From Candidatus Thorarchaeota archaeon (lineage in GTDB: Archaea; Asgardarchaeota; Thorarchaeia; Thorarchaeales; Thorarchaeaceae): a DNA stretch of 64,000 nucleotides. The first letter of the stretch is position 1. Every line of letters begins with the position of its first letter. Where the stretch lies: the NCBI GenBank assembly GCA_048882045.1, contig JBHLRZ010000014.1:1-64000 (forward strand). Reading direction: 5' to 3'. Of this stretch, positions 32,108 to 45,598 are shown piece after piece. The translations under genes were made by a program, and so were the position numbers. Below the pieces are notes generated by a model. It was given only the letters and a program-made list of their open reading frames with translations. It was not told the origin of the DNA and ran no database searches.

Positions 32108-32413
32108 GTGGGACGAACTGTCCGCACCTATAGAGATGCGATTAGGATTGAAGAAGCGCGCTGGAAAGAGTTCAGGCGCACTTTGAGACAGTCCCAGCGA
32201 GAAAGGTTCGACCGCATATTCGACTATGCGAGAGGGTTTGCGGATGCGGGCACCATGATGGTGACACCTCGAATCATCGAGGTGATCATACTTTCTGCGA
32301 TTCTTGAGATGCTGGGGGAGATTGACGAAATCAAAGAGAGGGTACAGCTTCTGGAGGAGAAGACTGAGGAGACAGCCCCTGATGAGCAGAACTGGATGGC
32401 TCCTGGACTGTAG
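32108..32413 (+). CDS. Small helical PolB2-associated protein
   Basis: MGRT..TYR...E..RW..FRR.L....R..FD.IF pattern, typical of the gene upstream of PolB2; overlaps the polB start. Confidence 0.78.
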   Translation: MGRTVRTYRDAIRIEEARWKEFRRTLRQSQRERFDRIFDYARGFADAGTMMVTPRIIEVIILSAILEMLGEIDEIKERVQLLEEKTEETAPDEQNWMAPGL

Positions 32414-34664
32414 TGTCAACTGGGAGAAACAGGCACTGACCCTCTGGATCAAAGAGGATGGGAAGACCAGGGGCTACACCTATAGAGGCTTCAACCCCTC
32501 TGTCTTTGTCAGCACGGACCTCATGGAGAGCGATGAGTGGAACAGGACAGGAATTCTGCGAGCAGTCCGTGAGCATCCAAAAGTTACAGACTCAGAGGTG
32601 GTGGAGAAGTTTGCAAGTGTCTATGACAAAGAGAAGACTCCCGTGTTGAGGGTTTCCACCACACCAGATGCATTGCAGGAAGTGGCCAAAGACCTAGAGA
32701 AACTGCCAGGGGCTGTGGTCTATCACGCAGACATTGATCCGGTACAGCAGTTCTTCATTGACAGGACACTGTTTGCCTTTGGACGCGTCGAGTTCAAAAC
32801 GAAAGGGGACGAGGTCACCGAGATCTGGGGCATTGACGAACGGGAAGACCCCGAGTATGAGATTCCAGACCTGGAGGAACTAGGCTTTGAGGTGTTTGTT
32901 GACACAGATCAGATATTTCCCAAACTAGAGGACAGGATACATCACATCGAGGTCTACCACGGGGATGATACGATCTGCATTGAAGACAGTCATGAACGGT
33001 CAATCTTGGTCCGTTTTCAGAGTCTGATTGACAGGATAGATCCTGATGTCATTGTCACAGGGAGGGGCGATGAGAGCCTATTCAGATATCTCAGTCTGCG
33101 TGCAAAGGTCAATGGGATGGAGCTCAGACTCTCTAGGGACAGATCACCACTGAAGGTCGTTCACAGAGAGGCGCAGTCATTTTGGCAGTACAATCGGATT
33201 GTGTTCAGGTCAGGAACACAGGTCACACTGAACGGACGAATCCACATTGACAGAGGAAAGACCGGCATGCACATGTATGCCCCAACAGGGCTAGAGGGGG
33301 TCGTAGAGAGCTGTAGACTTGCACTGGGCCGTCCGCAGAGAGTTTCACAGATGACGATTGGCGGGGTGAACGCTGCCGTTCAGTTCTACAGGGCATACAA
33401 GATGGACATCCTGATACCGCCGGTCAAACGGAACCCTGAGTTTCTCAAGACAGTCACCGAACTGGCAGCCATTGACAGGGGCGGCCTCATCCTTCAACCA
33501 CGACCAGACATCTATGAGGACATTGCTGAGTGTGACTTCTCGTCTATGTATCCCACTCTCATGGTCAAGCAGAACATCAGTCCAGAAACCATCTGCACGC
33601 TGAAGGACGAGCATTGTCCATACAACAACGAACATTGTATCAGAATCCCGCAACAGAGCTTCAGAATCTGCACCAAGAGGAGGGGAATAGTTGCAGAGTC
33701 GCTGAAACTATTGGTCGACCGTCGAATGGCCTTCAAGAATCTGATAGAGGAGGGTCAAGACGCCAAGAGGTACGAGTACATACAGAACACTCTGAAGGGG
33801 GTCTTGGTGTCCTGTTTCGGTTACTTGGGGTTCAAGAACGCGAAGTTCGGGAGGGTCGAGGCGCATACTGCTGTCACAGCGCTGTCCAGAGAGGTCATGC
33901 TCAAGACCAAGGACATCGGGGAGGAGATGGGTCTAGAGATGGTTCATGGTATAGTGGACTCCGTCTGGCTGAAGTCAAAGCGAGAAATCGACTATGAAAA
34001 CGTCGAGAAGTTCTGCAAGCGGGTGTCAGAGGAGGTGGACATCAAGATGTCGCCCAAGGGAGTCTATAGATGGATGGTCATCCCGTCCTCACGACTGCAT
34101 CCCTCGGTCGCACCATTGAACCGATACTATGGAGTCTATAAGAACGGAGGGATCAAGACTCGAGGAATCGAAACTAGACGACGTGATACATGCCTCTATG
34201 TCGGAGACTGCCAGAAGGAGATGATCAAAACCCTAGCAATGGGACAGGACAAGGACGGTTTCTTGAGGCAGATACCGGAAGCGCATGCAGTGTGTCAGGA
34301 ATTCATAGGTAGACTCCATGATGACGACGTAGACCTCAGAGACCTCATTCTCAACTCCACTCTCACAAGAAACCCGCATGAATATCGTGCTACTTCACGA
34401 GCCGCAGTGGTCGCTCAACAACTGGTCAAGGCAGGGAGAAACCTGCATGCGGGGCAGAAGGTCCGCTATATCATGACTAGTGCGGACTCTGAAAATCCAT
34501 TGCGGAGAGTACGCGCTCTGGAACTCTTTGACGAGTCAACAAGATATGACCCTGAGGCATATGCGATTCTGTGCGAGCGAGCCTTTGAGAACCTTATTCC
34601 AGCACAGTATCTGGATTCATCAGAGAGAGATTCAGAACAGACCCTTCTTATTCCGAAGGCATAG
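32382..34664 (+). CDS. polB2: Family B DNA polymerase, PolB2 (G2) group
   Basis: DFSSMYP motif A, LKGVLVSCFGY motif B, HGIVDS variant of motif C, K.RGIE.RRRD; exonuclease motifs degenerate. Confidence 0.88.
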   Translation: MSRTGWLLDCSVNWEKQALTLWIKEDGKTRGYTYRGFNPSVFVSTDLMESDEWNRTGILRAVREHPKVTDSEVVEKFASVYDKEKTPVLRVSTTPDALQEVAKDLEKLPGAVVYHADIDPVQQFFIDRTLFAFGRVEFKTKGDEVTEIWGIDEREDPEYEIPDLEELGFEVFVDTDQIFPKLEDRIHHIEVYHGDDTICIEDSHERSILVRFQSLIDRIDPDVIVTGRGDESLFRYLSLRAKVNGMELRLSRDRSPLKVVHREAQSFWQYNRIVFRSGTQVTLNGRIHIDRGKTGMHMYAPTGLEGVVESCRLALGRPQRVSQMTIGGVNAAVQFYRAYKMDILIPPVKRNPEFLKTVTELAAIDRGGLILQPRPDIYEDIAECDFSSMYPTLMVKQNISPETICTLKDEHCPYNNEHCIRIPQQSFRICTKRRGIVAESLKLLVDRRMAFKNLIEEGQDAKRYEYIQNTLKGVLVSCFGYLGFKNAKFGRVEAHTAVTALSREVMLKTKDIGEEMGLEMVHGIVDSVWLKSKREIDYENVEKFCKRVSEEVDIKMSPKGVYRWMVIPSSRLHPSVAPLNRYYGVYKNGGIKTRGIETRRRDTCLYVGDCQKEMIKTLAMGQDKDGFLRQIPEAHAVCQEFIGRLHDDDVDLRDLILNSTLTRNPHEYRATSRAAVVAQQLVKAGRNLHAGQKVRYIMTSADSENPLRRVRALELFDESTRYDPEAYAILCERAFENLIPAQYLDSSERDSEQTLLIPKA

Positions 34665-35990
34665 CTATTCAGTAACAGCATGTGCTTGAAGAGCGATGCG
34701 GGGTTTCAGCTCCCTGACTGGGATTCCGGTTTCCTTGGAAACTCGAAATACATCTTCAGCCTCGGGTTTGATGTTCAAAATACTTCCATCAGCACTACGG
34801 GAAACCTTCACTCTTACCATGTAGTCCTGTCCATCAATCTCAAGACTACACACGATGGTTTCTCGGACAGCTTTGAGTCGTTTCCAGGTTGTATAGCGTA
34901 TTCCTGTGGTTCCAAGACTCTTAATCATGACATCTGCGATGCCTTTCAGTCCAGTCTTGGCAGCTATCACCTCGACTACATGACAAGGACGGTTCTTCTT
35001 TCCAATGGCAGGGATGATCGTGACATCATACGCCAACCCCTCTGAGAGAAGCGTGTCGAATAGGGCACCTAATGTTTCGCCATCAACATCATCGACGTTG
35101 GTCTCAATCACTATGACTTCATCCTCATTCCAAGTATCGATTAGATCTGGTTTCTCCTTTGTTTCAGCCGGTTCTTTGGCTGGTTTCTCCTTTTTCTTTT
35201 CAACGGGCTGAACCGGAGCTACCTCCTCTGATAGAACTGTTTCTCCGATAACGATTGATAGCATGTTTGGAATCTTGCCTAGACTTCGAGTACCAAAACC
35301 AAAACCCTGATTCTGTGCAACGAAATTATCATGCGAGTCAACGAATTTGTCAACTATAGCTATTAGTATGGCCGCACCTGTTGGTGTCAGAACCTCTGTC
35401 TTTGCTTCGCCATTGTGATGAGGGACCTTATGTGCTGCTAGCATCTCAGCCACTGCTGGAACTGGTACTTCAAGCTCCCCATGCTCAGTCTTGATTTTTC
35501 CATTACCAACCGCAACCTTTGTCGAAAGAATCTCGGTATCATCAAACAGTCCCAATCGGTCAAGCAAGTATGCAGTACCAACTAGATCGAGGACTGTGTC
35601 CACAGAACCTGTTTCATGAAGATGAAGCTCATCGATGGGTATGTTATGGGCTTTGCTTTCAGCCTCCAATATCACATCAAGACCGTTCAAAGCGACTTCT
35701 CTTCCCTTCGAAGATAGTTCAACCTCTTCAGCAACGGATTGGATGACCTCCCTAAGTTCGAAAGGACTTAGTGAAATCTCAGCATTTCTTGTTACCTGCA
35801 GTTGACGTCCTGTAATCCCAGAGAAAGAGTGAGACACTACATTCATGCGAAACGAAGGGTCATGAATAAGGAGGCTAGCAGCGACAGGAAGAAGAACATT
35901 ATCTTCACCGACGAGGTCAGTGAGTGCTGCAAGGAACATGTCTCCTGCTGCTCCAGCAGTTGATACATCTATGAGTATGGTCTTCTTCAG
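34665..35990 (-). CDS. larC: Nickel-pincer cofactor nickel insertase LarC (probable CTG start)
   Basis: ILIDVSTAGAAGDMFLAAL, HLHETGSVD, HG.L.VPVPA, TPTGAA, IETNVDD, GKKNRP, TTGIR. Confidence 0.88.
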   Translation of the reverse strand: MKKTILIDVSTAGAAGDMFLAALTDLVGEDNVLLPVAASLLIHDPSFRMNVVSHSFSGITGRQLQVTRNAEISLSPFELREVIQSVAEEVELSSKGREVALNGLDVILEAESKAHNIPIDELHLHETGSVDTVLDLVGTAYLLDRLGLFDDTEILSTKVAVGNGKIKTEHGELEVPVPAVAEMLAAHKVPHHNGEAKTEVLTPTGAAILIAIVDKFVDSHDNFVAQNQGFGFGTRSLGKIPNMLSIVIGETVLSEEVAPVQPVEKKKEKPAKEPAETKEKPDLIDTWNEDEVIVIETNVDDVDGETLGALFDTLLSEGLAYDVTIIPAIGKKNRPCHVVEVIAAKTGLKGIADVMIKSLGTTGIRYTTWKRLKAVRETIVCSLEIDGQDYMVRVKVSRSADGSILNIKPEAEDVFRVSKETGIPVRELKPRIALQAHAVTE

Positions 35991-36098: not shown

Positions 36099-36878
36099 TC
36101 ATATTGTAACTCGATTTCGCCACTGTTCGAAGATGGCCATATACATGCATTCCTGAGGTGGGATCCACATCTCAGAAGAATCAAAGGACTGATCCACAAA
36201 CTCGACAGGCGCATCTCTGATTAGTGCAGCTGGAATCGACTCATCTGACTCGCCCATCACAGCTGTGCATGCTGATGCAAGATTGTCAGCGATGGCTCGT
36301 CTAGTAATCCTCAGTACGTTACCAAACAGGTCTGTCCTACCTCTATCATCTGCAACCGGTCGAAAGCCAGCATTTCCAAGAGCCATACCAACATTTCCCA
36401 GTCTCAGAGGTTGAGTGCGACTGTCAATGACAAGAACTCCGATAGTCTTTCCAAGTCTGTTCTTGACCTCATTCCTAATTCTCTCCGCACTCTCTCTAGG
36501 GTTGGCTGGCAGGAGAGAGGCATACCCTGGAGGGACATTGGACTTGTCGACTCCAGCATTTGCCATCAGGGTGTTACTCTTGATTGTCAAGACAACGTGA
36601 GGAATACCTCCCAGGATTTCATCTGCTTCGTTCAATACGAGTTCTGCAACCTCAGGAATCATTTCGTATTTCCTCGCAAGATCTCGCGCTTTTTCTGAAG
36701 CGACAACATTCGAGAGCTTGACTACTTGGCCTTCAGTTGTACCCAGGGGAGTTTCAGCCACACCGAGGATGTCATTGTCCTGAATCTCGATTCCCTTATT
36801 GGTGAGACCTTCGAGAAGTACATCTAGGAGATTGTCTTCTTCAGTAATGATTCGAGTCTTGATTGGAAAAACCTGCAT
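36099..36878 (-). CDS. cofE: Coenzyme F420-0:L-glutamate ligase
   Basis: ANAGVDKSN, IDSRTQPLRLG, D.RG..DLFG..L..T..AIAD, MGES.E. Confidence 0.88.
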   Translation of the reverse strand: MQVFPIKTRIITEEDNLLDVLLEGLTNKGIEIQDNDILGVAETPLGTTEGQVVKLSNVVASEKARDLARKYEMIPEVAELVLNEADEILGGIPHVVLTIKSNTLMANAGVDKSNVPPGYASLLPANPRESAERIRNEVKNRLGKTIGVLVIDSRTQPLRLGNVGMALGNAGFRPVADDRGRTDLFGNVLRITRRAIADNLASACTAVMGESDESIPAALIRDAPVEFVDQSFDSSEMWIPPQECMYMAIFEQWRNRVTI

Positions 36879-36920
36879 TGCGCTGACCCAACTTGAGAGT
36901 CTCGAAGTACGAAGATAAAT

Positions 36921-38333
36921 TCATCCACCGCGAGATTTTTGGAGCTTCATCCTTTCGGACATGATGCACTTGTCACCCTTCCGACCCCCCATTGGACATC
37001 TCTTTGTGCCCATGGAGTTCATGCATCTTGCAGCAACCGCAGCTCCCATTGCTAGACCATCTTCCACGAAGAGGATATCGTGCATATCAGTCCAAAGAGA
37101 TCCATCATTAAGATGTAGATTTTCTGTGATGAGTTTGGGTTTCTGTCCAGTAATGATTGCACGCCCCGTAAGTCCCAAAGATGTATCTTTTAGAATTAGC
37201 CCCTCTGATTCGATAATCGATATCAAGCGTTGAACGATTCCAGCCTGGATCACATCGATCACTGTAAGCAGTGTATTGGTGTCACTAGCATACACAATCG
37301 ATTTCCCAAGTTTAGTAAGGTCATCTAGCCCAGATCCGTTGGTTCCTGCATCAACGCCAACTAACGTAGTTCCTGACTCTTCAGCAGCGCTTGCGTCTAC
37401 AGGAACAGTACCGAACCGTTCGACTGATTTTGAAACCTTCTCAACCCTGATGATGCTATGGGCTTTCTCTTCCCATTTTGAATCAATCTGCAATTGCTGC
37501 GACTTGTTAGATTGTGGGATGTCTAGAACACTACCAGTCTTTGCATCTATCAGTCCAGTGCCCTTTGCCAATGCATCCGGTATTGCCCCTGCAAGCCCAG
37601 CAAAGGAGCCAATTGTTCTGGCATAGGGGAACCCGTCGTCTGTCACACGTCCTGCAAGAGTGGTCCCAAAATCAAGTGTAAAAACAGGATTTCGAAAATC
37701 AATGTCAGTGCTCTTTGCTGCACCCTTCAGTCCGGCACTGACAAGCTCTCCCTCCATCTCGTTTGCAACAATCTCAGTATTTGAAGGAGGAAGTGAACTC
37801 GCTACAGCCCCATCAAAGTACACCTTCTTTAACCAAGTATAGTCACGAATATCCGGAGGAAGATTCTCTGCTGAGATTGATGCAGTCATTTTCCTTGGAG
37901 GAATTCCTGCATTAAGACATCCATCAGCCAGAGCCTGCACAATAGTTCCTACTTCACTAGGACTAGCAAAACTTGCAGTCACTCCAGTTGAGCGGACCAC
38001 AAAGTGGAGGTCACGCTCAATGTCAAGTCGCGCTTTCTTGAGAGTAGTTCTGAGAATGTCTGACACCAGTTCCGATACTGACTCTCTAGTAAGCTCCACA
38101 CCAAAGACAGTTCTTCCAAACACTTCTTCCTCTTCTTTGGGATGACGGACATCTCGAGTCATACGAACCTCTTTTTCGATTTCATAGATTTCAGCGGTTT
38201 CTAGATTTGTAGTCACAAGGACACACTTTGTGGTCGTGTTACCCAATTCAACAGATGCAACTGTGTAGAAAGGACCTTTCCGAAGTGATGATACTCCTAT
38301 AGAACGAGGTCGTACTACTCGATCTTTTTTCAC
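36921..38333 (-). CDS. Methanogenesis marker 14-like ASKHA ATPase (diol-dehydratase reactivase-like)
   Basis: VASVELGNTTTKC, FVVRSTGV, ANEMEGEL, DFRNP..LDFGTTLAG, DGLA.GAAV.ARCMNS. Confidence 0.85.
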   Translation of the reverse strand: MKKDRVVRPRSIGVSSLRKGPFYTVASVELGNTTTKCVLVTTNLETAEIYEIEKEVRMTRDVRHPKEEEEVFGRTVFGVELTRESVSELVSDILRTTLKKARLDIERDLHFVVRSTGVTASFASPSEVGTIVQALADGCLNAGIPPRKMTASISAENLPPDIRDYTWLKKVYFDGAVASSLPPSNTEIVANEMEGELVSAGLKGAAKSTDIDFRNPVFTLDFGTTLAGRVTDDGFPYARTIGSFAGLAGAIPDALAKGTGLIDAKTGSVLDIPQSNKSQQLQIDSKWEEKAHSIIRVEKVSKSVERFGTVPVDASAAEESGTTLVGVDAGTNGSGLDDLTKLGKSIVYASDTNTLLTVIDVIQAGIVQRLISIIESEGLILKDTSLGLTGRAIITGQKPKLITENLHLNDGSLWTDMHDILFVEDGLAMGAAVAARCMNSMGTKRCPMGGRKGDKCIMSERMKLQKSRGG

Positions 38334-38350
38334 AATCTGTCACTTCCATA

Positions 38351-39286
38351 TTAGACTAGTTTCTTGAACGGATGGTCATCAGAGGGCTCAATACCAAATT
38401 CGAGACTATAAGACTCTGCAGCAAACACATCACACATGGCAACAACTGGAAACACTCGTTCTGCATTAGCTATTGGGCCATAGAGCACAAAGTCAGCACC
38501 CATCATCTGTACAATAAGATTTGAAGCAACATCTGCAGTCCGATATCCTTCTGGATTCGCCTTCTTGTGTTTTCTCAACCAGGACCACGATGAGGGAGCA
38601 TTGTGTACTCCGGATCCTGTTGGAAGTCCATAGACAGTCTTTGACACAAATGTGAATGCCGCAGCTGTACCAGCACCTGCACCCATTGCAGTCACTGCAG
38701 TATCTATCAGGGGTTTGGTGATTCCAAGTTCCTTACTCAATGGTAGTAGTCCCTTGTCTAGTTCAAGTGCACCGGTGTCCAACACAGTTCTTCGCCCCCC
38801 GATAGATGGGTCTTGGGGATTGAATGCAAGGATGATTGCACATTCATGTTGGATACTCTTGAGAGCCTCAATCTCCTCCTTAGTTGCAGAAACGTTGAGA
38901 GAGTTATAGATGGCTCTGTCTAGAAGACCTATCTCCTCAGCATGAGTCAAACCAGCGATCCGAACTAGAGGTTCTGTCGAATCAATGAGGAACGGAGCAT
39001 CAGTAATGTCAGTCACGAAATCGATGTACTTCTTCAGTGCATCCTCGGTTTCCGAAAATATTTGGATTAAAGCAGGATTGCCAGTGAGTTGTGACATCTC
39101 ATCCTGTTTCTCAATCAGAGCGGTTGCTGCCTTCTTATCGAAGACTCCCTTCTTGGTGTCCGTAACGATCTTGTGCCCTCCATAGAAGATAGTACCAGCA
39201 AGAACCGTAGCAGTTTCACCCGGGTTTCCACCTATCTTCACTCCACCTACATTATGGATGACCTGTTCTTTCTCAAAGACAAACAT
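38351..39286 (-). CDS. mtrH: Methyl-H4MPT:corrinoid methyltransferase MtrH
   Basis: MF.FEKEQ...GGVKIGG.PGE..TVLAGTIFY.GH, PFLIDST, IYNS, GSGVHNAPSSW, GADFVLYGPI. Confidence 0.9.
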   Translation of the reverse strand: MFVFEKEQVIHNVGGVKIGGNPGETATVLAGTIFYGGHKIVTDTKKGVFDKKAATALIEKQDEMSQLTGNPALIQIFSETEDALKKYIDFVTDITDAPFLIDSTEPLVRIAGLTHAEEIGLLDRAIYNSLNVSATKEEIEALKSIQHECAIILAFNPQDPSIGGRRTVLDTGALELDKGLLPLSKELGITKPLIDTAVTAMGAGAGTAAAFTFVSKTVYGLPTGSGVHNAPSSWSWLRKHKKANPEGYRTADVASNLIVQMMGADFVLYGPIANAERVFPVVAMCDVFAAESYSLEFGIEPSDDHPFKKLV

Positions 39287-39290
39287 TGCA

Positions 39291-39977
39291 TCAACCCTCT
39301 CTCGCGTATAGAATGGTCCCTGTGTCTTCTTCCTGAACTTCAATAATAGTGGAAGAGGGGTTCTCTGACACTATAGCATGTTTCATCTGACTCATGATCA
39401 TTGAGGATGTGGAATCGAGAATGACACCATACTCGGGCAACACTATCACATCACCGGTAATCGATGGTGTTCTGGTTGATTTCACTGGAGCCCTGAACTC
39501 AACCCACATAGCTCCCCCTGGAAACTCACCTGGGTCTTTGGTCAATAACTCTCCTGCTTTGGATGCGATTTCGGTAGGATTGATCTTGTTGATCATATCG
39601 ATGAGTTCAATCTGCTCGCGGAATTGATCAATTCCTTCAAGGGGAACGTTCTCAATATACGGAATTGCTCCTTCAGCATCGATGATCTTTCGGGTTTCTC
39701 TGTCAACTCCGTTATGATAGAGTGCACGCAATGACCTGCCAGTAAGATGTCCAGGAACCTCTGGACCAGTGAGAATCAGAAATCGAATATTCGGATTGGA
39801 GATGACATTGATGATGACACGTTCAATTCCAATATTCTCAGTCTTGCAGGTACCGATGATTGCGCACTCAGTATCAACATCAATCTTCTTACCCAGTGTA
39901 CAAATGGCTACACATTTGGAGGGGTCTCTAACTTCGAAATCTCCTTGGACCGGAGGCCATTCGGGTTCAGGATTCAT
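39291..39977 (-). CDS. mtrA: MtrA corrinoid protein, soluble (no TM anchor), with C-terminal extension
   Basis: WPPVQGDF, GTCKTENIGIE, NPNIRF, EVPGHLTG (cobamide His ligand), GAIPYIEN. Confidence 0.9.
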   Translation of the reverse strand: MNPEPEWPPVQGDFEVRDPSKCVAICTLGKKIDVDTECAIIGTCKTENIGIERVIINVISNPNIRFLILTGPEVPGHLTGRSLRALYHNGVDRETRKIIDAEGAIPYIENVPLEGIDQFREQIELIDMINKINPTEIASKAGELLTKDPGEFPGGAMWVEFRAPVKSTRTPSITGDVIVLPEYGVILDSTSSMIMSQMKHAIVSENPSSTIIEVQEEDTGTILYAREG

Positions 39978-39992
39978 TTTATTGCATCCCTC

Positions 39993-40910
39993 CTATTCAA
40001 ACGATGGGGGTTCAAAGAGTTCTCTGTCAATGTCCAATACACTGTTTGCTTCGGCTATGGTTGCGGCTATGGCATTCGAAATCAGAGCTGCTGATGTGAA
40101 TATCTCTTTGGCATGAGATAATGAGCCAAACATTATGGCATCAGTTGCAAAGAGTTGTGCAGCCACAGTCGCTGCAACCACCGTCGAGATTCTTGTCGTG
40201 TCATCATCCAATCCGGGTTGTCGGATGAATCGCCAAGCGGAAGGTGCATTGTGAGGAGCTAGACATGTTGGAAGTCCCAATTCTGATTTCACAGCAATGG
40301 TGGTCCTATGCTCCAGTCCATAGCCAGAACCTACGGGCATCGTAGCCGGATCGACGATGGTTTTCTTTATACCCAATGACTCGGAGAATGTTAGTACATC
40401 ACGTATTGTATCCATTCTATCTGGGAGCGTAGTGGCCTTTGGTGACCACCCAAGGATGACTGCCATGTCCAATGCACTAGCTTTGAGTTTGTCCTTCTCA
40501 TCATCCTTCATTGACAGATTGATGGAGTTGAAGACCGCTCGGTCAGTGAGTCCAGTTTCTTCGCAGTATTCAATTGCACGAATGCGAGCGTTTGCATTTA
40601 TTGACTCGAACATGAAGGGTCCTTCAAGATTCTCTGCTAGCCAAGAGAGATGATTCTCCATTGCCCGAGGAGTTCTACCAAATGCTTGAATCATCAATGG
40701 GAGTCCAGTTTTGTCAGACATTAATTGTGCAGTGTCAATCCATGACTTCGCGACTTCTTTGTCGAATATACCCTCTCGAGTGTCCTCCATTATTGACTGA
40801 CCCTTGAAGAAGAGACCCCCAATCAGAACTGTGGGATTCTCACCAGGATTACCACCAATAGGAATACCTCCAAAGTCAAACACTTGTTGCTCTTTCTTGA
40901 AGACAAACAC
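39993..40910 (-). CDS. Divergent MtrH paralogue
   Basis: F.FKKEQ...GGNPGENPTVLIG, VFNS, APHNAPSAW; PFMFES in place of PFLIDS. Confidence 0.82.
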   Translation of the reverse strand: MFVFKKEQQVFDFGGIPIGGNPGENPTVLIGGLFFKGQSIMEDTREGIFDKEVAKSWIDTAQLMSDKTGLPLMIQAFGRTPRAMENHLSWLAENLEGPFMFESINANARIRAIEYCEETGLTDRAVFNSINLSMKDDEKDKLKASALDMAVILGWSPKATTLPDRMDTIRDVLTFSESLGIKKTIVDPATMPVGSGYGLEHRTTIAVKSELGLPTCLAPHNAPSAWRFIRQPGLDDDTTRISTVVAATVAAQLFATDAIMFGSLSHAKEIFTSAALISNAIAATIAEANSVLDIDRELFEPPSFE

Positions 40911-40914
40911 GATA

Positions 40915-41865
40915 TCACCTCTCAACCTTCCGTCTAGGATACAAATTAGCACGTTTGACAAGCTCAACAATACTCTCTGGCCAACCTATGCCCATCAAGT
41001 GTAGTCCATTGACGCCATCGATCTCACGTATCACCTCTATGGTTTCAAGGGCGATTTGAATACCTTCCGCTTTCATTGCCTGAATCTTGGCCTGCTCCTC
41101 TTCTTGACCTTTTGCAGAATCATCAAGTCGTCGAATGAACTCATCAGGAACCTGAATATCTGGAACATAGTCATTCATGAAGTGCGCCATCTCTGAGTCA
41201 CGAAGCGGGATTATACCCACCAAAATGTTCAGTTTGTTGTCAGTTTGTCCCATGAATCTCTGTAAGAGAACAGGATCAAAGATCGCTTGAGTCTGAAAGA
41301 ACTGTGCTCCCGCTTCGAATTTCGCTTTCATTCGACGTTGTTGATTTTCTAGTGATGCATCATTTGGATTGATGGTTGCTCCGAGATAGAACTCTGGTGT
41401 TCCCTCCAACTCATCACCCACAGAGTCAACTCCAGTGGAGAGATGTTTCGCCAGAGCAAGAGCCTCAAGAGTATCTAGATCGTTGACCATCTTTACATGA
41501 GGATGCGTTCCGAACCGAGTAGGGTCACCAGCCATGATGAGAAGATTACGCACACCAAGTGCGTATGCGCCATAGAGCTCGCTCTGAAATGCGATCTGGT
41601 TTCGGTCCCTTGTTGTCAGATGGAGGATAGGTTCAGCGCCTGCCTGAAGTACAAATGTGGAACATACACTGCTGCTCATGGTTGGAACTCCACGGGCATT
41701 GTCAGGTACATTAATGGCATCACAGAAATCACGTATCATTTCAACACGATTTATTACTATTGATGAATCCGCCCCATGAGGTGCTCCAATCTCTCCCGTA
41801 ACTACGAAATCACCTCTATCTAGTAATTGCTTGAGTCGTGTTTCGAGCAGTTTGCAGACCTCCAC
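40915..41865 (-). CDS. metF: Methylenetetrahydrofolate reductase (MetF family); start at GTG 41865 or CTG 41850
   Basis: FVVTGE, DAINVPDN, PILHLTTRDRN, GDP, K.EAGAQFFQTQ, GIIP, GLHLM. Confidence 0.88.
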   Translation of the reverse strand: MEVCKLLETRLKQLLDRGDFVVTGEIGAPHGADSSIVINRVEMIRDFCDAINVPDNARGVPTMSSSVCSTFVLQAGAEPILHLTTRDRNQIAFQSELYGAYALGVRNLLIMAGDPTRFGTHPHVKMVNDLDTLEALALAKHLSTGVDSVGDELEGTPEFYLGATINPNDASLENQQRRMKAKFEAGAQFFQTQAIFDPVLLQRFMGQTDNKLNILVGIIPLRDSEMAHFMNDYVPDIQVPDEFIRRLDDSAKGQEEEQAKIQAMKAEGIQIALETIEVIREIDGVNGLHLMGIGWPESIVELVKRANLYPRRKVER

Positions 41866-41896: not shown

Positions 41897-43714
41897 TTAA
41901 TTGGTTTTGTTAGAAATCCAGCCCTTCTTTATCGCAATACTAAATGCAACTAATGACATGGATGATACTGTGGCAATCATTATTGGGATGGATACAATCA
42001 GTGGAGGAGAGGACATGGTTGTATGAGGACTGGAACCTATCTTGAAATCGGGGTAGTAATGATAGTCTGGATTGGCAGTAAGATTGTAGATGTCACCAAC
42101 ATCATATCCTGTAAGAATGAAAGGCCCACAAGTAACATGAGGTGATTCAGCGTCAAATATTGGGTTCCATCTATCCCAGCTAGAAAATCCAATTCCTGAG
42201 AAGATATGTTTTGGAATTATGAATTCATAGACAATGTTGTAGAAGTGCCAATACGACTCACTACTGAACTCCATCACTACTTTATACATGGAGGGAGCAT
42301 ATACAGACATTAGATCGATGAAGGAGTCTGCAGCGAGATTTCCATAGGTCCTGCTCTCCAGTAGATAGATGAAAGTATATGCAACGTCTACTGCAGTTAA
42401 CGGAGTACCATCTGACCACGTTGCATTACGTAGTATGTTAAAAGTAAAACGCATGTTACCTTCAGGAACTGTTGGATTATCACGATTGGTTTCGACAAGC
42501 ACAGACTCAGCAAGGTCAGGAATTGGGTTCATGTCAGGACCACGAGAATATAGAGAGGAATATAGGTTTTCAAGAATCATTCTTGAGTATATCGAGTATG
42601 GTAATGAAAAGTTGAGGGCATAGAAATTGAAGGTATCAGGTTCTAAGCTAAGGGCAATACCTACGGTACCCCCTTGAGTATCGTTAATCTTAAGCATCTT
42701 TCTCAAAGTCCACGGACCTGAGATGTATCGATAGATATCAGCAACATGACCTTTGAACTTGTCAGTTCTATATCCTTGGTAGATATTTGATTGACATATC
42801 ACCAATTGCGGAACGTTGTAATGCAGAATCCTTTGAATTTCAACAGAAGCTTCAAGGACTTCTTCGTAGGTTCTCCCTGTTCGGAATTTTTCCATCCAGA
42901 AATCATAAGTTTCGTTTTTAAAGTTCGAAAAGTCAAAATTAAGATTCAAACCGAAATCATCATAGTAATAAAAACTCTTGAAAGCGTAAGTCATATCCCA
43001 AGAGGGGGGAAATTCCCACCCAGGCAATATCCAGCTCTCTATGTAGATCCAGTTTGTATCGATATGTAGAGAGTGAAGGGCTTCGATAGATAGATCAGCG
43101 ATTTCGAGACCGTGATATGCATAATATCCTTCAATAGTAAATGGTTCACCATTCGGTGCATTTCTAAAACCTGTTGTACTGTTCATTGTAAAGCCAAGTT
43201 CATCGAGGAGTGCATTACCCCTCTCTATGTCAGCTCCATAGTAATGATTTTCAAGGAGTTCTTCTGCGCACCACCTGTTTACAGAAGGAAGTAGAGAATC
43301 ATGCGGTGATGCATGACCTCGGTAAATATCATCTACAGCTTTTATCTTATTGAATGCAAAAGCAAATGCTCTTCGAAAACCAGAGATGTTCAGTGGGTAA
43401 TGTTCGCAATTGAGAAGGATAGAAGTGTAGCCATTTCTTGGATACTCGAATATCTCGACATTTGGATCAGCATCGAGTAAATTGAAGCTTGAGAAACCAA
43501 CATCCCCGATGTCGATTACTCCACTTTGAAGGGCAATGGTTCTTTGGTTATTTCCAACAATTACTTTGTAGACTACTTTGTCGATGAATGGTCCGATTCG
43601 GATGTCCTCTGGAATATCTATTGAAGCAACGAGGGGGAATTGAAGAGAGAGAAACAGAATGGTGCAACAGAAAGACAGCACACTCAGTGACCTCCTCAAC
43701 ACAAACCACCACAT
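41897..43714 (-). CDS. ABC peptide/nickel substrate-binding protein (family 5), C-terminally anchored
   Basis: FRRAFAFAFNK, PDLAES, WSDG.PLTA.DV.YTF, GPF; C-terminal TM. Confidence 0.85.
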   Translation of the reverse strand: MWWFVLRRSLSVLSFCCTILFLSLQFPLVASIDIPEDIRIGPFIDKVVYKVIVGNNQRTIALQSGVIDIGDVGFSSFNLLDADPNVEIFEYPRNGYTSILLNCEHYPLNISGFRRAFAFAFNKIKAVDDIYRGHASPHDSLLPSVNRWCAEELLENHYYGADIERGNALLDELGFTMNSTTGFRNAPNGEPFTIEGYYAYHGLEIADLSIEALHSLHIDTNWIYIESWILPGWEFPPSWDMTYAFKSFYYYDDFGLNLNFDFSNFKNETYDFWMEKFRTGRTYEEVLEASVEIQRILHYNVPQLVICQSNIYQGYRTDKFKGHVADIYRYISGPWTLRKMLKINDTQGGTVGIALSLEPDTFNFYALNFSLPYSIYSRMILENLYSSLYSRGPDMNPIPDLAESVLVETNRDNPTVPEGNMRFTFNILRNATWSDGTPLTAVDVAYTFIYLLESRTYGNLAADSFIDLMSVYAPSMYKVVMEFSSESYWHFYNIVYEFIIPKHIFSGIGFSSWDRWNPIFDAESPHVTCGPFILTGYDVGDIYNLTANPDYHYYPDFKIGSSPHTTMSSPPLIVSIPIMIATVSSMSLVAFSIAIKKGWISNKTN

Positions 43715-43789
43715 TGTCCTTGGCTGATGATTGATATTATGATTTTTATACGAGCAATCTGGGACTATGCTCCCCGAAATTGCATATGT

Positions 43790-45598
43790 CTACTCAGAGC
43801 GTTTTCTGTCCATTATCAAAAGCACTATGATACCAGCAGTGACAACTACATAAGTTGTGGAAAGAGTCATTGCTACAATTTGAAATATGGGATCAGATGT
43901 TACAGGCGGAAAAGTGTTGATGATGTCAGGTGTTATAGGTTGTCTTTGTGGGAGCCAATGATATAAGGGATTTACCGTCAATTCATAGAACTCACCAAGT
44001 TCGAAATCTGTCAATACAAAGGGTCCACTTGTCACATGCGGTTCTTCCGGATCAAAGACAGGGTTCCAAGTATTCCAGCCCTCGTAGCCAATTGCTGTAA
44101 AGATGTGTTTTGGAATAATATAGTCATACGCAATCTTGCTGAAATGCCAATATGACTCAGAACTGAATTCAAAGACCACGCGATATGTAGATGGTGCGTA
44201 TACAGCAACAAGATCATTCAACGAACTTCCAGCTGGATTCCCGTAAGCTCTGCTTTCTAGTTGGTACAGGAATGTGAACGATATGTCTTCGGCTGTGAGC
44301 GACTGACCGTCTGACCATGAGGCATTTTGTAGAATGTCAAATGTATAGCGCATGTGACCATCAGGAATCATAGAATTGTTGCTATGGGTTTCAGTAAGCA
44401 TAGATATTGCCAAGTCTGGTAGAGGATTCATATTTGGATCCCGTGAGTAGAGTGATGAATAGAGGTTCTCAAGAATTAAGTGAGAGTACATCAAGTTAGT
44501 GACGTAGATGTTGAAACTGTATGGCTCCTGACCAAGGCCAATATTAAACAAGCCACCGTATGTACCATCGACTCTGTGAATTCGTCTCAAAGTCCATGGA
44601 CCGGAGAAATATCGAAAATGGTCTTCAATATGACCTTGGAACTGGTCAGTTCTAATAGCTTCGAGATAGTTTGGCTGACATACTACAATGCGAGGAACAT
44701 TGTAATGCAGAATTTTCTGAATCTCGGTTGAAGCTTCATAGACCTCTTCGTATGTCTTTCCATTGTAATATTTTTCAGTCCAATATGTAAAGGTATCATT
44801 TCTATAGTTGGAAAGACTATCTTCCCAAATCATAGTATCATATCCAAAAGTCCAGCTTATAACGACCATATCATATGAGGGAGGAAGAATCCATGGCCAC
44901 CACCATGAATAGTACACATAACAATCAACATTCAGTGCGGAAAGAGCTTCACAAGCGAGTTGGGCAATCGTCCCAGATATGAAAGAACTTGAGGGAGAGT
45001 AGTACACTATGACAGTAAATGGTTCGCCATTCGGTGCGTCCCTGAATCCTGTCGTGGAATTCAATGTGAAACCAAGTTCATCAAGGATTGCATTGCCTCT
45101 CTCTATGTCAGCCTCATAGTAATGATATTCAAGAAGATCTTCTGCGCACAACCTATTGGTCAATGGAACCACTGAATCATGCAGTGTTGCATGACCTTCG
45201 TAAACGTAGTTTAACGCCTTCGTCTTGTTGAAAGCAAAAGCGAAAGCCCGTCTAAAGCCAGTGATGTTTAGTGGATACTTGTTACAATTGATAGAAATTG
45301 AGTTATACCCATTTCTTGGACATTCTAGGATGTCAATATCAGGATTCTCAAGTAATTCCGAAGTTTGTGTGTAATAATTCTCAGAGATTCTCCCAATATC
45401 GAGTACTCCTGATTGGAGAGCGAGTAGAGTGCCAGATCCAATGATTACTTTGTAGACTACACTGTCGATAAATGGGCCATAACGAATGTCTTCAGGAATA
45501 TCAATTGACACCACAAGTGGGAGCTGAAGAAATAGGACTAGGAAGATGCAACACAATGATAGTGCACTCCGTGACCTCCTCAACACGTTCCACCTCAT
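43790..45598 (-). CDS. ABC peptide substrate-binding protein (family 5), tandem paralogue
   Basis: Same motifs; closely similar to 41897..43714. Confidence 0.85.
   Translation of the reverse strand: MRWNVLRRSRSALSLCCIFLVLFLQLPLVVSIDIPEDIRYGPFIDSVVYKVIIGSGTLLALQSGVLDIGRISENYYTQTSELLENPDIDILECPRNGYNSISINCNKYPLNITGFRRAFAFAFNKTKALNYVYEGHATLHDSVVPLTNRLCAEDLLEYHYYEADIERGNAILDELGFTLNSTTGFRDAPNGEPFTVIVYYSPSSSFISGTIAQLACEALSALNVDCYVYYSWWWPWILPPSYDMVVISWTFGYDTMIWEDSLSNYRNDTFTYWTEKYYNGKTYEEVYEASTEIQKILHYNVPRIVVCQPNYLEAIRTDQFQGHIEDHFRYFSGPWTLRRIHRVDGTYGGLFNIGLGQEPYSFNIYVTNLMYSHLILENLYSSLYSRDPNMNPLPDLAISMLTETHSNNSMIPDGHMRYTFDILQNASWSDGQSLTAEDISFTFLYQLESRAYGNPAGSSLNDLVAVYAPSTYRVVFEFSSESYWHFSKIAYDYIIPKHIFTAIGYEGWNTWNPVFDPEEPHVTSGPFVLTDFELGEFYELTVNPLYHWLPQRQPITPDIINTFPPVTSDPIFQIVAMTLSTTYVVVTAGIIVLLIMDRKRSE

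What the first reader, a model, noticed from the sequence alone, without database searches (positions are those of the whole stretch)
36099..41865. Membrane-free Mtr module: metF-mtrH'-mtrA-mtrH-marker14-cofE, a possible folate/methanopterin methyl shuttle
Seen: six co-oriented genes with gaps of about 4-42 nt. They encode MetF, two different MtrH proteins flanking an MtrA that keeps the cobamide His (EVPGHLTG) but has no hydrophobic C-terminal anchor, a marker-14 ATPase and CofE. No mtrCDEFG or mcr is present in the window. Known: MtrH methylates the MtrA corrinoid from methyl-H4MPT, and MetF makes methyl-H4folate. Inference: a soluble corrinoid relay in a non-methanogen in which the two MtrH paralogues recognise different pterins or substrates, moving methyl groups between the H4F and H4MPT pools (or from a methyl donor into them) without Na+ pumping.
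Basis: partly seen in the sequence, partly recalled or inferred. Interest (0 to 1): 0.88.

Follow-up and report, generated by a model that had tools for sequence, protein, structure and literature searches.

The report
Soluble Mtr-derived methyl relay, Thorarchaeota
An uncultured Asgard (Thorarchaeota) archaeon keeps a membrane-free piece of the methanogens' vitamin-B12 methyl-transfer machine, with one cobalt carrier between two unlike methyltransferases next to its only methylene-pterin reductase. The gene set is real, class-wide and partly published, but the proposed folate-to-methanopterin shuttle is only one possible job and cannot be the conserved one.

Summary
Observation confirmed. Six co-oriented minus-strand genes with 4-42 nt gaps encode an MTHFR-family MetF, a divergent MtrH (MtrH'), a 228-aa MtrA with the cobamide His but no membrane helix, a canonical MtrH, marker 14 (DUF2114) and a CofE-family ligase.

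The 93%-complete genome has no MtrB-G and no McrA. The order metF-mtrH'-mtrA-mtrH-mm14-cofE holds in nearly all of 68 Thorarchaeota loci.

Thorarchaeial "canonical MtrAH" plus marker m26 (DUF2114) is already published (Adam et al. 2022). I found no paper describing these points:
- MtrH' is a Thorarchaeota-only paralogue.
- The sole MTHFR of the class always sits in this cluster.
- The MtrA tail carries an MtrB-N-terminus-like motif.
- The "cofE" is a third, divergent paralogue.

The shuttle reading is possible in this genome, which has Fhs, FolD, MetF, Mch, Mer and archaeal Cdh. It fails as the conserved function. Among 41 genomes at least 90% complete, Mer and CdhC each occur in only 18, and 12 have neither. 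Two genomes keep the mtr genes with no MTHFR.

No known methionine synthase family was found in the class, so an unknown non-pterin acceptor is a live rival.

This scan met the same operon before in at least six other Thorarchaeota genomes.

The parts
40915..41865 (-). metF: MTHFR-family methylene-pterin reductase. It is the only MTHFR in the genome, and no MetV is present here.
   Evidence: PF02219 scores 115.6 bits. It is the sole PF02219 match in the genome. In 71 of 81 class genomes there is exactly one MTHFR, always beside MtrA. Four Thorarchaeota MetV sequences give no tblastn hit in this genome.
39993..40910 (-). mtrH': divergent, Thorarchaeota-specific MtrH-family TIM-barrel methyltransferase (305 aa, GTG start 4 nt after the metF stop)
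   Evidence: PF02007 scores 240 bits and TIGR01114 scores 238, below its cut-off of 271. It forms one 50%-identity cluster, and the next relatives are at most 36% identical. The clade is monophyletic on a long stem. N129, D196, H229 and N230 are kept; D103E and T32G are fixed; the K242/K243 patch is lost.
39291..39977 (-). mtrA: soluble corrinoid carrier. The core domain is residues 1-162 with His77, followed by a 66-residue tail in place of the membrane helix.
   Evidence: PF04208 scores 195 bits. It scores 164 bits against M. marburgensis MtrA 8Q3V over residues 2-161, with the His aligned. There is no hydrophobic segment. The full 228-aa form is conserved across Thorarchaeota.
39390..39449 (-). 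MtrB-N-terminus-like motif in the MtrA tail (residues 177-196, VIVLPEYGVILDSTSSMIMS)
   Evidence: P181 and E182 are invariant in 33 sequences. hhalign of the tail profile against the MtrB profile aligns 20 columns to MtrB residues 4-23, with P = 0.0067. This is the MtrB segment that docks the MtrH dimer in the M. mazei structure (PMC12774963). The tail is disordered in a monomer model.
38351..39286 (-). mtrH: canonical MtrH (311 aa, ATG start 4 nt after the mtrA stop)
   Evidence: TIGR01114 scores 404.8 bits, above its cut-off of 271.4. It scores 278.6 bits against M. mazei MtrH 9QTP. The clade groups with methanogen MtrH. The pterin residues and the basic patch are kept.
36921..38333 (-). Methanogenesis marker 14 (DUF2114, m26): an ASKHA-fold protein and likely nucleotide-dependent helper of MtrA
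   Evidence: TIGR03285 scores 622 bits. The AF2 model has pLDDT 89.6. Foldseek hits are all ASKHA proteins, with RACo at rank 19. It lies directly after mtrH in 53 of 53 loci. Its link to Mtr is published.
36099..36878 (-). cofE-like: third, divergent paralogue of the F420-0:gamma-glutamyl ligase family
   Evidence: TIGR01916 scores 191.5 bits (cut-off 180.65) and TIGR04132 scores 112.7. Two better CofE genes lie on C3 and C5, at 263 and 247 bits. It is adjacent in 49 of 51 loci and is the most conserved gene of the cluster, at 70-82% identity.

Best explanation
This is a soluble corrinoid methyl relay built from parts of the methanogen Mtr complex, and it is conserved across the class Thorarchaeia.

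The parts:
- MtrA carries a cobamide, with His77 as ligand. Its membrane helix is replaced by a flexible linker and a tail. The tail probably docks the MtrH-type subunits, as the N-terminus of MtrB does in methanogens.
- Two different pterin-type TIM-barrel methyltransferases, canonical MtrH and the Thorarchaeota-only MtrH', act on this one carrier.
- Marker 14, an ASKHA-fold protein, probably keeps or returns the cobalt to the active Co(I) state.
- MetF, the only methylene-pterin reductase family member that is universal in the class, ties the relay to the methylene level of C1 metabolism.

Methyl groups would pass from methylene-pterin (MetF) to methyl-pterin, then through one MtrH to methyl-Co(III)-MtrA, then through the other MtrH to a second carrier. 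No sodium pumping or methane formation is involved.

Shown: the gene content, the solubility, the conservation and the active-site residues.
Inferred: the docking, the reactivase role, the direction of flow and the identity of both methyl carriers.

In this genome a transfer between methyl-H4F and methyl-H4MPT is feasible. The class-wide function must involve a further, still unknown donor or acceptor.
For: - Family matches and tight spacing of the six genes.
- No MtrB-G, MtrE or McrA in this genome, and no MtrE in 41 class genomes.
- Synteny: mtrH' is adjacent in 60 of 61 loci, metF in 56-57 of 59, mtrH in 61 of 61, mm14 in 53 of 53 and cofE in 49 of 51.
- MtrA occurs in 73 of 81 class genomes.
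- MtrH and MtrH' are equally constrained, each at 76% mean column identity.
- MtrH' keeps N129, D196, H229 and N230. It has fixed changes at D103E and T32G and has lost the K242/K243 patch that MtrH keeps (numbering from PMC12774963).
- The MtrA His is aligned to solved MtrA.
- The tail motif aligns to the MtrH-docking segment of MtrB.
- Marker 14 has an ASKHA fold and a published link to Mtr.
- MetF is the sole MTHFR and always lies in the cluster.
Against: - No biochemical data exist for any of these proteins.
- The substrates of MtrH and MtrH' cannot be read from sequence.
- The tail-to-MtrB likeness is weak statistically: 20 columns, and an hhalign probability of 5.7% on a database scale.
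- Marker 14 matches ASKHA proteins in general, with TM-scores of 0.3-0.45. It shows no special likeness to RACo and no demonstrated Fe-S site.
- cofE, larC and polB are also syntenic. Part of the conserved order may therefore be frozen neighbourhood rather than shared function.
Confidence: 0.6

Rival explanations
1. MtrH' takes the methyl group of methyl-H4F made by MetF, and MtrA carries it. Canonical MtrH then passes it to H4MPT, or the reverse. The module would bridge the folate and methanopterin C1 pools and feed archaeal CODH/ACS or Mer.
For: - This genome has Fhs and FolD side by side, MetF, Mch, a true Mer at 439 bits, and an archaeal cdhABCDE cluster without AcsE.
- Its only Pterin_bind protein is DHPS. 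MtrH-family proteins are therefore the only candidate users of methyl-H4F.
- metF and mtrH' are 4 nt apart.
- MtrH' has lost the basic patch proposed to hold the H4MPT tail, while MtrH keeps it.
- Eleven of 41 genomes have Cdh but no Mer and would need such a bridge.
- The cofE-like gene scores best of the three paralogues on the folate gamma-glutamate ligase model, although it is below the cut-off.
Against: - Twelve of 41 near-complete genomes have neither Mer nor CdhC but keep the cluster. There the bridge would end in a dead end in either direction.
- Two genomes, one of them a closed chromosome, keep mtrH'-mtrA-mtrH-mm14 without any MTHFR.
- At the pterin-lining positions Q75 and H229, MtrH' looks like MtrH and not like the MtgA-type majority, which has D75.
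- In this genome Mer already makes methyl-H4MPT.
Confidence: 0.3
2. MetF makes the methyl-pterin, one MtrH loads MtrA, and the methyl group leaves to a non-pterin acceptor. The leading candidate is homocysteine, which would make the module a split, MetH-like methionine synthase. The transfer would be done by MtrH' or by an unlinked, unrecognised enzyme.
For: - No MetE or core-MetE (PF01717) was found in 41 genomes at E 1e-10, nor in 19 genomes at E 0.001. No MetH/BHMT homocysteine domain (PF02574) was found in 41 genomes.
- The own genome has no MetH folate domain.
- The cluster is conserved whether or not Mer and Cdh are present, as expected for a housekeeping role.
- Linkage of metF to methionine synthesis is classical.
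- Price et al. 2021 predict that MtrA donates methyl groups to the methanogen core synthase MesA (PMC7857596).
- The four roles (pterin barrel, B12 carrier, second barrel, reactivation protein) mirror the modules of MetH.
Against: - MtrH' keeps the pterin-binding residues.
- Its clade-specific Cys and His residues (H87, C116, C216) map away from the barrel mouth by homology, so no thiol-activating zinc site is evident.
- Thorarchaeia may simply be methionine auxotrophs.
- Two genomes lack MetF, and one of them (G007) also lacks Mer. They have no known methyl-pterin source, yet they keep the relay.
Confidence: 0.18
3. MtrH and MtrH' form an obligate heterodimer in place of the methanogen MtrH homodimer. 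Only canonical MtrH is catalytic, and MtrH' is mainly a structural partner that holds the MtrA tail.
For: - Methanogen MtrH is a dimer whose interface binds the MtrB N-terminus, and only one of its active sites is thought to serve MtrA (PMC12774963).
- The two MtrB-contact residues are split between the paralogues. The acidic residue 5 is kept in Thorarchaeota MtrH (E/D in 14 of 15) but is K/R in MtrH'. R211 is lost in MtrH (A/S/G) but is R in 15 of 15 MtrH'.
Against: Four of the four core pterin residues are invariant in MtrH', with 76% mean column identity. That is hard to explain for a pure scaffold. No interaction data exist.
Confidence: 0.1
4. The cluster is a decaying remnant of ancestral methanogenesis with no coherent present function, and its order is kept only by chance neighbourhood.
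For: Adam et al. 2022 describe Thorarchaeial MtrAH and m26 as remnants of methanogenesis. cofE, larC and polB are also syntenic.
Against: - All genes are intact.
- The proteins are 50-86% identical across 68 loci, with invariant catalytic residues.
- The gaps are 4-17 nt.
- The MtrA tail and the MtrH' clade are new, conserved features.
Confidence: 0.02

Closest known systems
Thorarchaeial 'canonical MtrAH' plus marker m26 (DUF2114), reported as methanogenesis remnants (Adam et al. 2022, Sci Adv, PMC9635834)
   Same: These are the same genes in the same class. The paper reports MtrA and MtrH without the other subunits, and marker 14 tied to Mtr by synteny.
   Different: In the text and supplement held, the paper has no occurrence of 'MetF' or 'CofE' and does not describe a second MtrH paralogue or the changed MtrA C-terminus. 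It suggests only a generic methyltransferase role.
Na+-translocating methyl-H4MPT:coenzyme M methyltransferase MtrABCDEFGH of methanogens (structures 8Q3V, 9QTP-9QTS)
   Same: The MtrA cobamide domain with its His ligand scores 164 bits against 8Q3V. MtrH scores 279 bits against 9QTP. Marker 14 lies nearby in methanogen and Archaeoglobi loci.
   Different: There is no MtrB-G, no membrane anchor on MtrA, no MtrE (the CoM-methylating, Na+-binding subunit) and no Mcr. A second MtrH-type enzyme stands where the second half-reaction would be needed.
Three-component corrinoid methyltransferase systems with an activase, such as the glycine betaine system of Desulfitobacterium hafniense. Its MtgA (6SJ8, 6SK4) is an MtrH-family methylcorrinoid:tetrahydrofolate methyltransferase. 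RACo/RamA are the reductive activators.
   Same: The logic matches: methyltransferase 1, corrinoid protein, methyltransferase 2, plus an ASKHA-type helper. MtgA is a solved relative of both MtrHs, at 141 and 194 bits.
   Different: Here both methyltransferases are of the pterin (MtrH) type, and no substrate-specific MT1 of the MtaB/MttB/MtgB kind is linked. The carrier is MtrA and not a B12-binding Rossmann protein. The helper is DUF2114 and not RamA/RACo.
Soluble MtrAH of other non-methanogens and of Methanomassiliicoccales MALP: Speth and Orphan 2018 (PMC6147122); Bathyarchaeia (PMC8407382); Sifarchaeia/Jordarchaeia (PMC9723677); Atabeyarchaeia/Freyarchaeia MtrAH fusions (PMC11291895)
   Same: MtrA and MtrH occur without membrane subunits, and proposed roles include a methyl-H4F-using variant.
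   Different: None of the passages I read from those papers mentions two MtrHs around one MtrA or linkage to metF. The proposals there centre on CoM or unknown methylated compounds.
MetH (modular cobalamin-dependent methionine synthase), and the predicted MtrA-to-MesA route in methanogens (Price et al. 2021, PMC7857596)
   Same: A pterin-binding barrel, a B12 carrier and a reactivation component sit beside MetF. MtrA has been proposed as a methyl donor for methionine synthesis.
   Different: No homocysteine-binding domain of any known family was found in the class. This likeness concerns how the module might work. It is not homology.

Membership tests
Mtr complex (Na+-translocating methyl-H4MPT:CoM methyltransferase) | MtrA cobamide domain with His ligand | tested here: met
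   PF04208 scores 195 bits. His77 in GPEVPGHLTG aligns to the His of 8Q3V MtrA and is invariant in 33 sequences.
Mtr complex (Na+-translocating methyl-H4MPT:CoM methyltransferase) | C-terminal membrane helix of MtrA | tested here: not met
   The highest 19-residue hydropathy is 1.27. TIGR01111 scores 189, below its cut-off of 249, and matches only residues 2-162.
Mtr complex (Na+-translocating methyl-H4MPT:CoM methyltransferase) | Membrane subunits MtrB-G, including MtrE | tested here: not met
   PF04206 gives 0 matches in the own genome and 0 of 41 in class genomes. tblastn with MtrB-G of three methanogen/Archaeoglobi loci finds nothing significant.
Mtr complex (Na+-translocating methyl-H4MPT:CoM methyltransferase) | Co-occurrence with methyl-CoM reductase | tested here: not met
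   PF02249 gives 0 matches in the own genome.
MtrH (TIGR01114 equivalog) | Score above the curated cut-off, for the canonical copy 38351-39286 | tested here: met
   It scores 404.8 bits against a cut-off of 271.4. The clade groups with methanogen MtrH.
MtrH (TIGR01114 equivalog) | Score above the curated cut-off, for MtrH' 39993-40910 | tested here: not met
   It scores 238.4 bits against a cut-off of 271.4. It belongs to Pfam MtrH (240 bits) but forms a separate long-branch clade.
MtrH/MtgA pterin methyltransferases | Pterin-site residues D103, N129, D196 and N230 (M. mazei numbering) | tested here: met
   MtrH has all four. MtrH' has N, D and N invariant, with D103 replaced by E in 15 of 15.
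Three-component corrinoid methyltransferase system with activase | A substrate-specific MT1 (MtaB/MttB/MtgB type) next to the corrinoid protein | tested here: not met
   The neighbours are MetF, two MtrH-family proteins, DUF2114 and a CofE-like protein.
Three-component corrinoid methyltransferase system with activase | Reductive activase of the RamA/RACo type (ASKHA domain plus Fe-S) | tested here: inconclusive
   The marker 14 model has an ASKHA fold. RACo 3ZYY appears at rank 19 among generic ASKHA hits. No Fe-S domain was shown, though C437 and C456 are invariant.
MTHFR (MetF) | Family model above cut-off and catalytic motifs | tested here: met
   PF02219 scores 115.6 bits against a cut-off of 24. 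It is below the equivalog cut-offs: TIGR00676 gives 52.8 against 293.7. The HLT and AGD motifs align with human MTHFR. Substrate specificity (H4F or H4MPT) is not testable here.
MetFV-type MTHFR | MetV (PF12225) partner gene | tested here: not met
   There is no MetV in this genome by tblastn. MetV precedes metF in 13 related loci.
CofE (F420-0:gamma-glutamyl ligase) | Equivalog score, and being the genome's CofE | tested here: inconclusive
   TIGR01916 scores 191.5 bits, just above its cut-off of 180.65. Two paralogues elsewhere score 263 and 247.
Methanogenesis marker 14 (TIGR03285, DUF2114) | Score above the curated cut-off | tested here: met
   It scores 622 bits against a cut-off of 274.

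The most novel reading that the evidence does not exclude
MtrH and MtrH' sit as a heterodimer on the MtrB-like tail of a soluble MtrA. The tethered cobamide domain swings between their two opposed active sites. The enzyme thereby moves methyl groups directly between two different pterin carriers, H4F and H4MPT. No such pterin-to-pterin methyl transfer is known, and it would join the bacterial-type and archaeal-type C1 branches in an Asgard archaeon.
Probability: 0.3. Interest if true: 0.8.

Novelty: new variant of a known kind. Interest (0 to 1): 0.52.

Why it matters
The role of MtrA and MtrH outside methanogens is an open question that recurs in papers on Asgard archaea, Bathyarchaeia and Methanomassiliicoccales. 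Thorarchaeia offer the cleanest case. They have one soluble MtrA, two unlike MtrH-type enzymes, a likely reactivase and the class's only MTHFR, all in one tight, class-wide operon.

That gives a small set of proteins on which the question can be settled in vitro. The comparative data narrow the answers. A pure folate/methanopterin bridge cannot be the conserved job. The class also lacks every known methionine synthase family, which points to an unrecognised methyl acceptor.

Either outcome bears on how the closest archaeal relatives of eukaryotes handle one-carbon units.

Tried and rejected
- **Complex prediction** on MtrH + MtrH' + MtrA tail 160-228 gave no verdict (score 0.12, mark 0.32). 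It counts neither for nor against binding.
The gene contexts of the nearest non-Thorarchaeota relatives of MtrH' (P0245, P0273 and others) could not be read.
- **Names of those relatives** are uninformative: Euryarchaeota, Thermoplasmatota and Nanoarchaeota MAGs.
- **Origin of MtrH'** stays undecided. The free tree puts it apart from Thorarchaeota MtrH (supports 85-91), but the AU test does not reject one Thorarchaeota clade (p = 0.117). The same test on the 129-row set did not finish.
- **Monomer model of MtrA**. The tail is disordered (pLDDT below 50), so it says nothing about docking.
- **Sequence search of marker 14 against the PDB** found nothing.
- **MetF as a replacement for Mer** was considered and not adopted as the main reading. 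MetF is near-universal while Mer is patchy with no complementarity, and the H4F branch (Fhs) is universal. This does not exclude MetF acting on H4MPT.
- **The upstream SBP genes** were considered as part of the operon and rejected. The upstream neighbour varies among SBP, HflX and MetV.
- **The third MtrH** on contig C5 has no corrinoid-related neighbours.
- **Liu et al. 2018** on Thorarchaeota could not be read. A statement there on these genes cannot be excluded.

Full report
**What is there.** The minus strand of the window carries six consecutive ORFs between 41865 and 36099. Pfam and NCBIfam name them as follows.
- An MTHFR-family protein: PF02219, 115.6 bits.
- An MtrH-family protein, here MtrH': PF02007 scores 240 bits, and TIGR01114 scores 238, below its cut-off of 271.
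- MtrA: PF04208, 195 bits.
- A canonical MtrH: TIGR01114 scores 405 bits, above its cut-off.
- Methanogenesis marker 14, DUF2114: TIGR03285, 622 bits.
- A CofE-family ligase: TIGR01916 scores 191.5 bits, just above its cut-off of 180.65.

With starts that have a ribosome-binding site and match the homologues (GTG 40910 for mtrH', ATG 39286 for mtrH), the gaps are 4, 15, 4, 17 and 42 nt. MtrA is 228 residues long and holds GPEVPGHLTG with His77. That His aligns to the cobalt-ligand His of solved MtrA. None of the six proteins has a hydrophobic helix.

**The organism and the rest of its genome.** The nearest homologues are all Thorarchaeota MAG proteins. The genome holds 3.63 Mb in 93 contigs and is 93.4% complete. 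It has:
- no MtrE and no McrA, and no MtrB-G by tblastn with methanogen and Archaeoglobi proteins;
- one MtrA;
- three MtrH-family genes, two here and a solitary third on contig C5 among unrelated genes.

It encodes both C1 branches. Fhs and FolD lie side by side on C15. It also has Mch, a true Mer at 439 bits and an archaeal cdhABCDE cluster with CooC genes and no AcsE. The cluster's MetF is the only MTHFR. The only Pterin_bind protein is DHPS, so the genome has no AcsE-type or MetH-type methyl-folate enzyme.

**Conservation.** Of 80 loci fetched with MtrA, 68 are of the Thorarchaeota type, with the whole 228-residue protein matched. Counting only loci with enough flanking DNA:

| Gene | Position | Loci |
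|---|---|---|
| mtrH' | directly before mtrA | 60 of 61 |
| metF | before mtrH' | 56 of 59 (57 counting a frameshifted copy) |
| mtrH | after mtrA | 61 of 61 |
| marker 14 | after mtrH | 53 of 53 |
| cofE-like | after marker 14 | 49 of 51 |

larC and a convergent polB follow in most loci, so the far end of the block may be mere conserved neighbourhood. The gene before metF varies among a solute-binding protein (as here), HflX and MetV. PF12225 MetV is present in 13 loci, and this genome has no MetV. In a sample of 81 class genomes, MtrA is present in 73 and a single MTHFR in 71, always beside MtrA.

**What is already known.** Adam et al. [quoted passage not shown] They also tie marker m26, which their table equates with DUF2114, to Mtr by distribution, phylogeny and synteny, including in Thorarchaeia. 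Soluble MtrAH in other non-methanogens has been discussed repeatedly. My full-text searches found no paper that describes a second MtrH paralogue, the metF linkage or a pterin-to-pterin transfer. Liu et al. 2018 could not be read.

**The two MtrHs.**
- MtrH' forms a single 50%-identity cluster. Its next relatives are canonical methanogen MtrH at 35-36% identity.
- In trees, MtrH' is monophyletic on a long stem. Thorarchaeota MtrH is monophyletic and groups with methanogen MtrH. Both lie inside one well-supported clade, and the third MtrH falls elsewhere with a Bathyarchaeota-type protein.
- A duplication within Thorarchaeota is not rejected (AU p = 0.117).
- Both paralogues show 76% mean column identity within the class, so MtrH' is not decaying.

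I mapped the residues onto M. mazei MtrH (PMC12774963), with these results:
- MtrH' keeps N129, D196, H229, N230 and Q75.
- It has Glu for D103 and Gly for T32 in all 15 sequences.
- It has lost K242/K243 of the basic patch proposed to hold the H4MPT tail. Thorarchaeota MtrH keeps that patch.
- The two residues that contact MtrB in the methanogen complex are split. The acidic residue 5 is kept only in MtrH, and R211 is kept only in MtrH'.

This fits an MtrH-MtrH' heterodimer, but it is only a hint.

**The MtrA tail.** After residue 162 comes a poorly conserved linker and then a conserved segment. In this window that segment reads VIVLPEYGVILDSTSSMIMS, and its Pro-Glu is invariant. A profile comparison aligns the segment to residues 4-23 of MtrB (P = 0.0067 over 20 columns). 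This is the very piece of MtrB that binds the MtrH dimer in the M. mazei structure. The likeness is short and statistically weak. An AF2 monomer model leaves the tail disordered. I treat docking by the tail as inferred.

**Marker 14 and the CofE-like gene.** A confident model of marker 14 (pLDDT 89.6) matches only ASKHA-fold proteins. These include Kae1/Qri7, sugar kinases, pantothenate kinase, the corrinoid activator RACo at rank 19, and HgdC. "ATPase-like" is therefore supported, while "corrinoid reactivase" remains an inference from its tie to Mtr.

The genome has two better CofE genes, at 263 and 247 bits on TIGR01916. The cluster copy scores lowest on that model and highest of the three on the model for a putative folate gamma-glutamate ligase (112.7 bits, far below its cut-off). 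It is also the most conserved gene of the block. It may add glutamates to something other than F420, possibly a pterin. This is speculation.

**Testing the shuttle idea by distribution.** Among 41 class genomes at least 90% complete:

| Family | Genomes with a match |
|---|---|
| Fhs | 40 |
| Mch | 40 |
| True Mer | 18 |
| CdhC | 18 |
| MtrE | 0 |

Combining the tables gives 7 genomes with both Mer and Cdh, 11 with Cdh only, 11 with Mer only and 12 with neither. Mer and Cdh are the only known enzymes that make or use methyl-H4MPT. In the 12 genomes with neither, a methyl-level bridge between H4F and H4MPT would be a dead end in either direction, yet the cluster is kept.

Two genomes keep mtrH'-mtrA-mtrH-marker 14 with no MTHFR at all. 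One of them is a closed chromosome. The other also lacks Mer and Cdh.

Caveats:
- These are MAGs.
- Divergent Mer-like paralogues below my threshold were not examined.

The bridge is therefore feasible in this genome and would be useful in the 11 Cdh-only genomes. It cannot be the conserved function.

**A lead from absences.** No MetE or core-MetE domain was found in 41 genomes, nor in 19 genomes at E 0.001. No MetH/BHMT homocysteine domain was found in 41 genomes. Price et al. 2021 predicted that MtrA gives methyl groups to the methanogen core methionine synthase. A relay of MetF, a pterin barrel, a B12 carrier and a reactivation protein resembles a split MetH. However, MtrH' shows no sign of a thiol-activating metal site, and Thorarchaeia may be auxotrophs.

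**Verdict.** The best-supported description is a soluble, Mtr-derived corrinoid methyl relay with two unlike pterin-type methyltransferases, a probable reactivase and MetF. It is conserved across Thorarchaeia, and its second methyl carrier is unknown. It is a new variant of a known kind, it is partly published, and this scan has already met it in several other Thorarchaeota genomes.

Noticed in passing
whole genome G000 and 41 Thorarchaeia genomes: No known methionine synthase family was found. PF01717 (MetE and core MetE) gave 0 of 41, PF02574 (MetH/BHMT homocysteine domain) gave 0 of 41, and the only Pterin_bind protein of this genome is DHPS, next to gcvT.
   Followed up: partly
41 Thorarchaeia genomes at least 90% complete: The Wood-Ljungdahl endpoints are patchy. 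True Mer occurs in 18 genomes and CdhC in 18, in all four combinations, while Fhs and Mch each occur in 40.
   Followed up: partly
window 36099-36878; G000:C3:81660-82400 and G000:C5:132349-133104: The genome has three CofE-family genes. The cluster copy is the weakest match to CofE, the best match to a folate gamma-glutamate ligase model, and the most conserved gene of the block.
   Followed up: partly
G000:C5:65876-66790 (L096:9877-10791): A third, solitary MtrH-family gene is nearest to a Bathyarchaeota-type clade. It lies among DNA-repair and peptidase genes with no corrinoid protein nearby.
   Followed up: partly
L021:5358-6053, L059:5367-6050 and 11 other loci: A Cys-rich MetV (PF12225) precedes metF in 13 related loci. 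Other lineages have HflX or a solute-binding protein there, and this genome has no MetV.
   Followed up: yes
window 34665-35939 and 32304-34664: larC (nickel-pincer cofactor insertion) and a convergent family-B DNA polymerase follow the cluster in almost every Thorarchaeota locus. Another reader noted that larC may start at a CTG.
   Followed up: no
window 41897-45598: Two tandem family-5 solute-binding proteins sit 31 nt upstream of metF on the same strand, each matching only the middle part of the Pfam model. They are present upstream in only some related loci.
   Followed up: no
G000:C9:75979-79783: An 813-aa HdrA-like flavoprotein fused to an MvhD (FlpD) domain, together with a polyferredoxin, lies between Mer and the cdh cluster.
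   Followed up: no
L057 (CP070761.1) and L064: Two Thorarchaeota genomes keep mtrH'-mtrA-mtrH-marker 14 but have no MTHFR anywhere. In L064, cofE-larC-polB is inverted upstream.
   Followed up: partly
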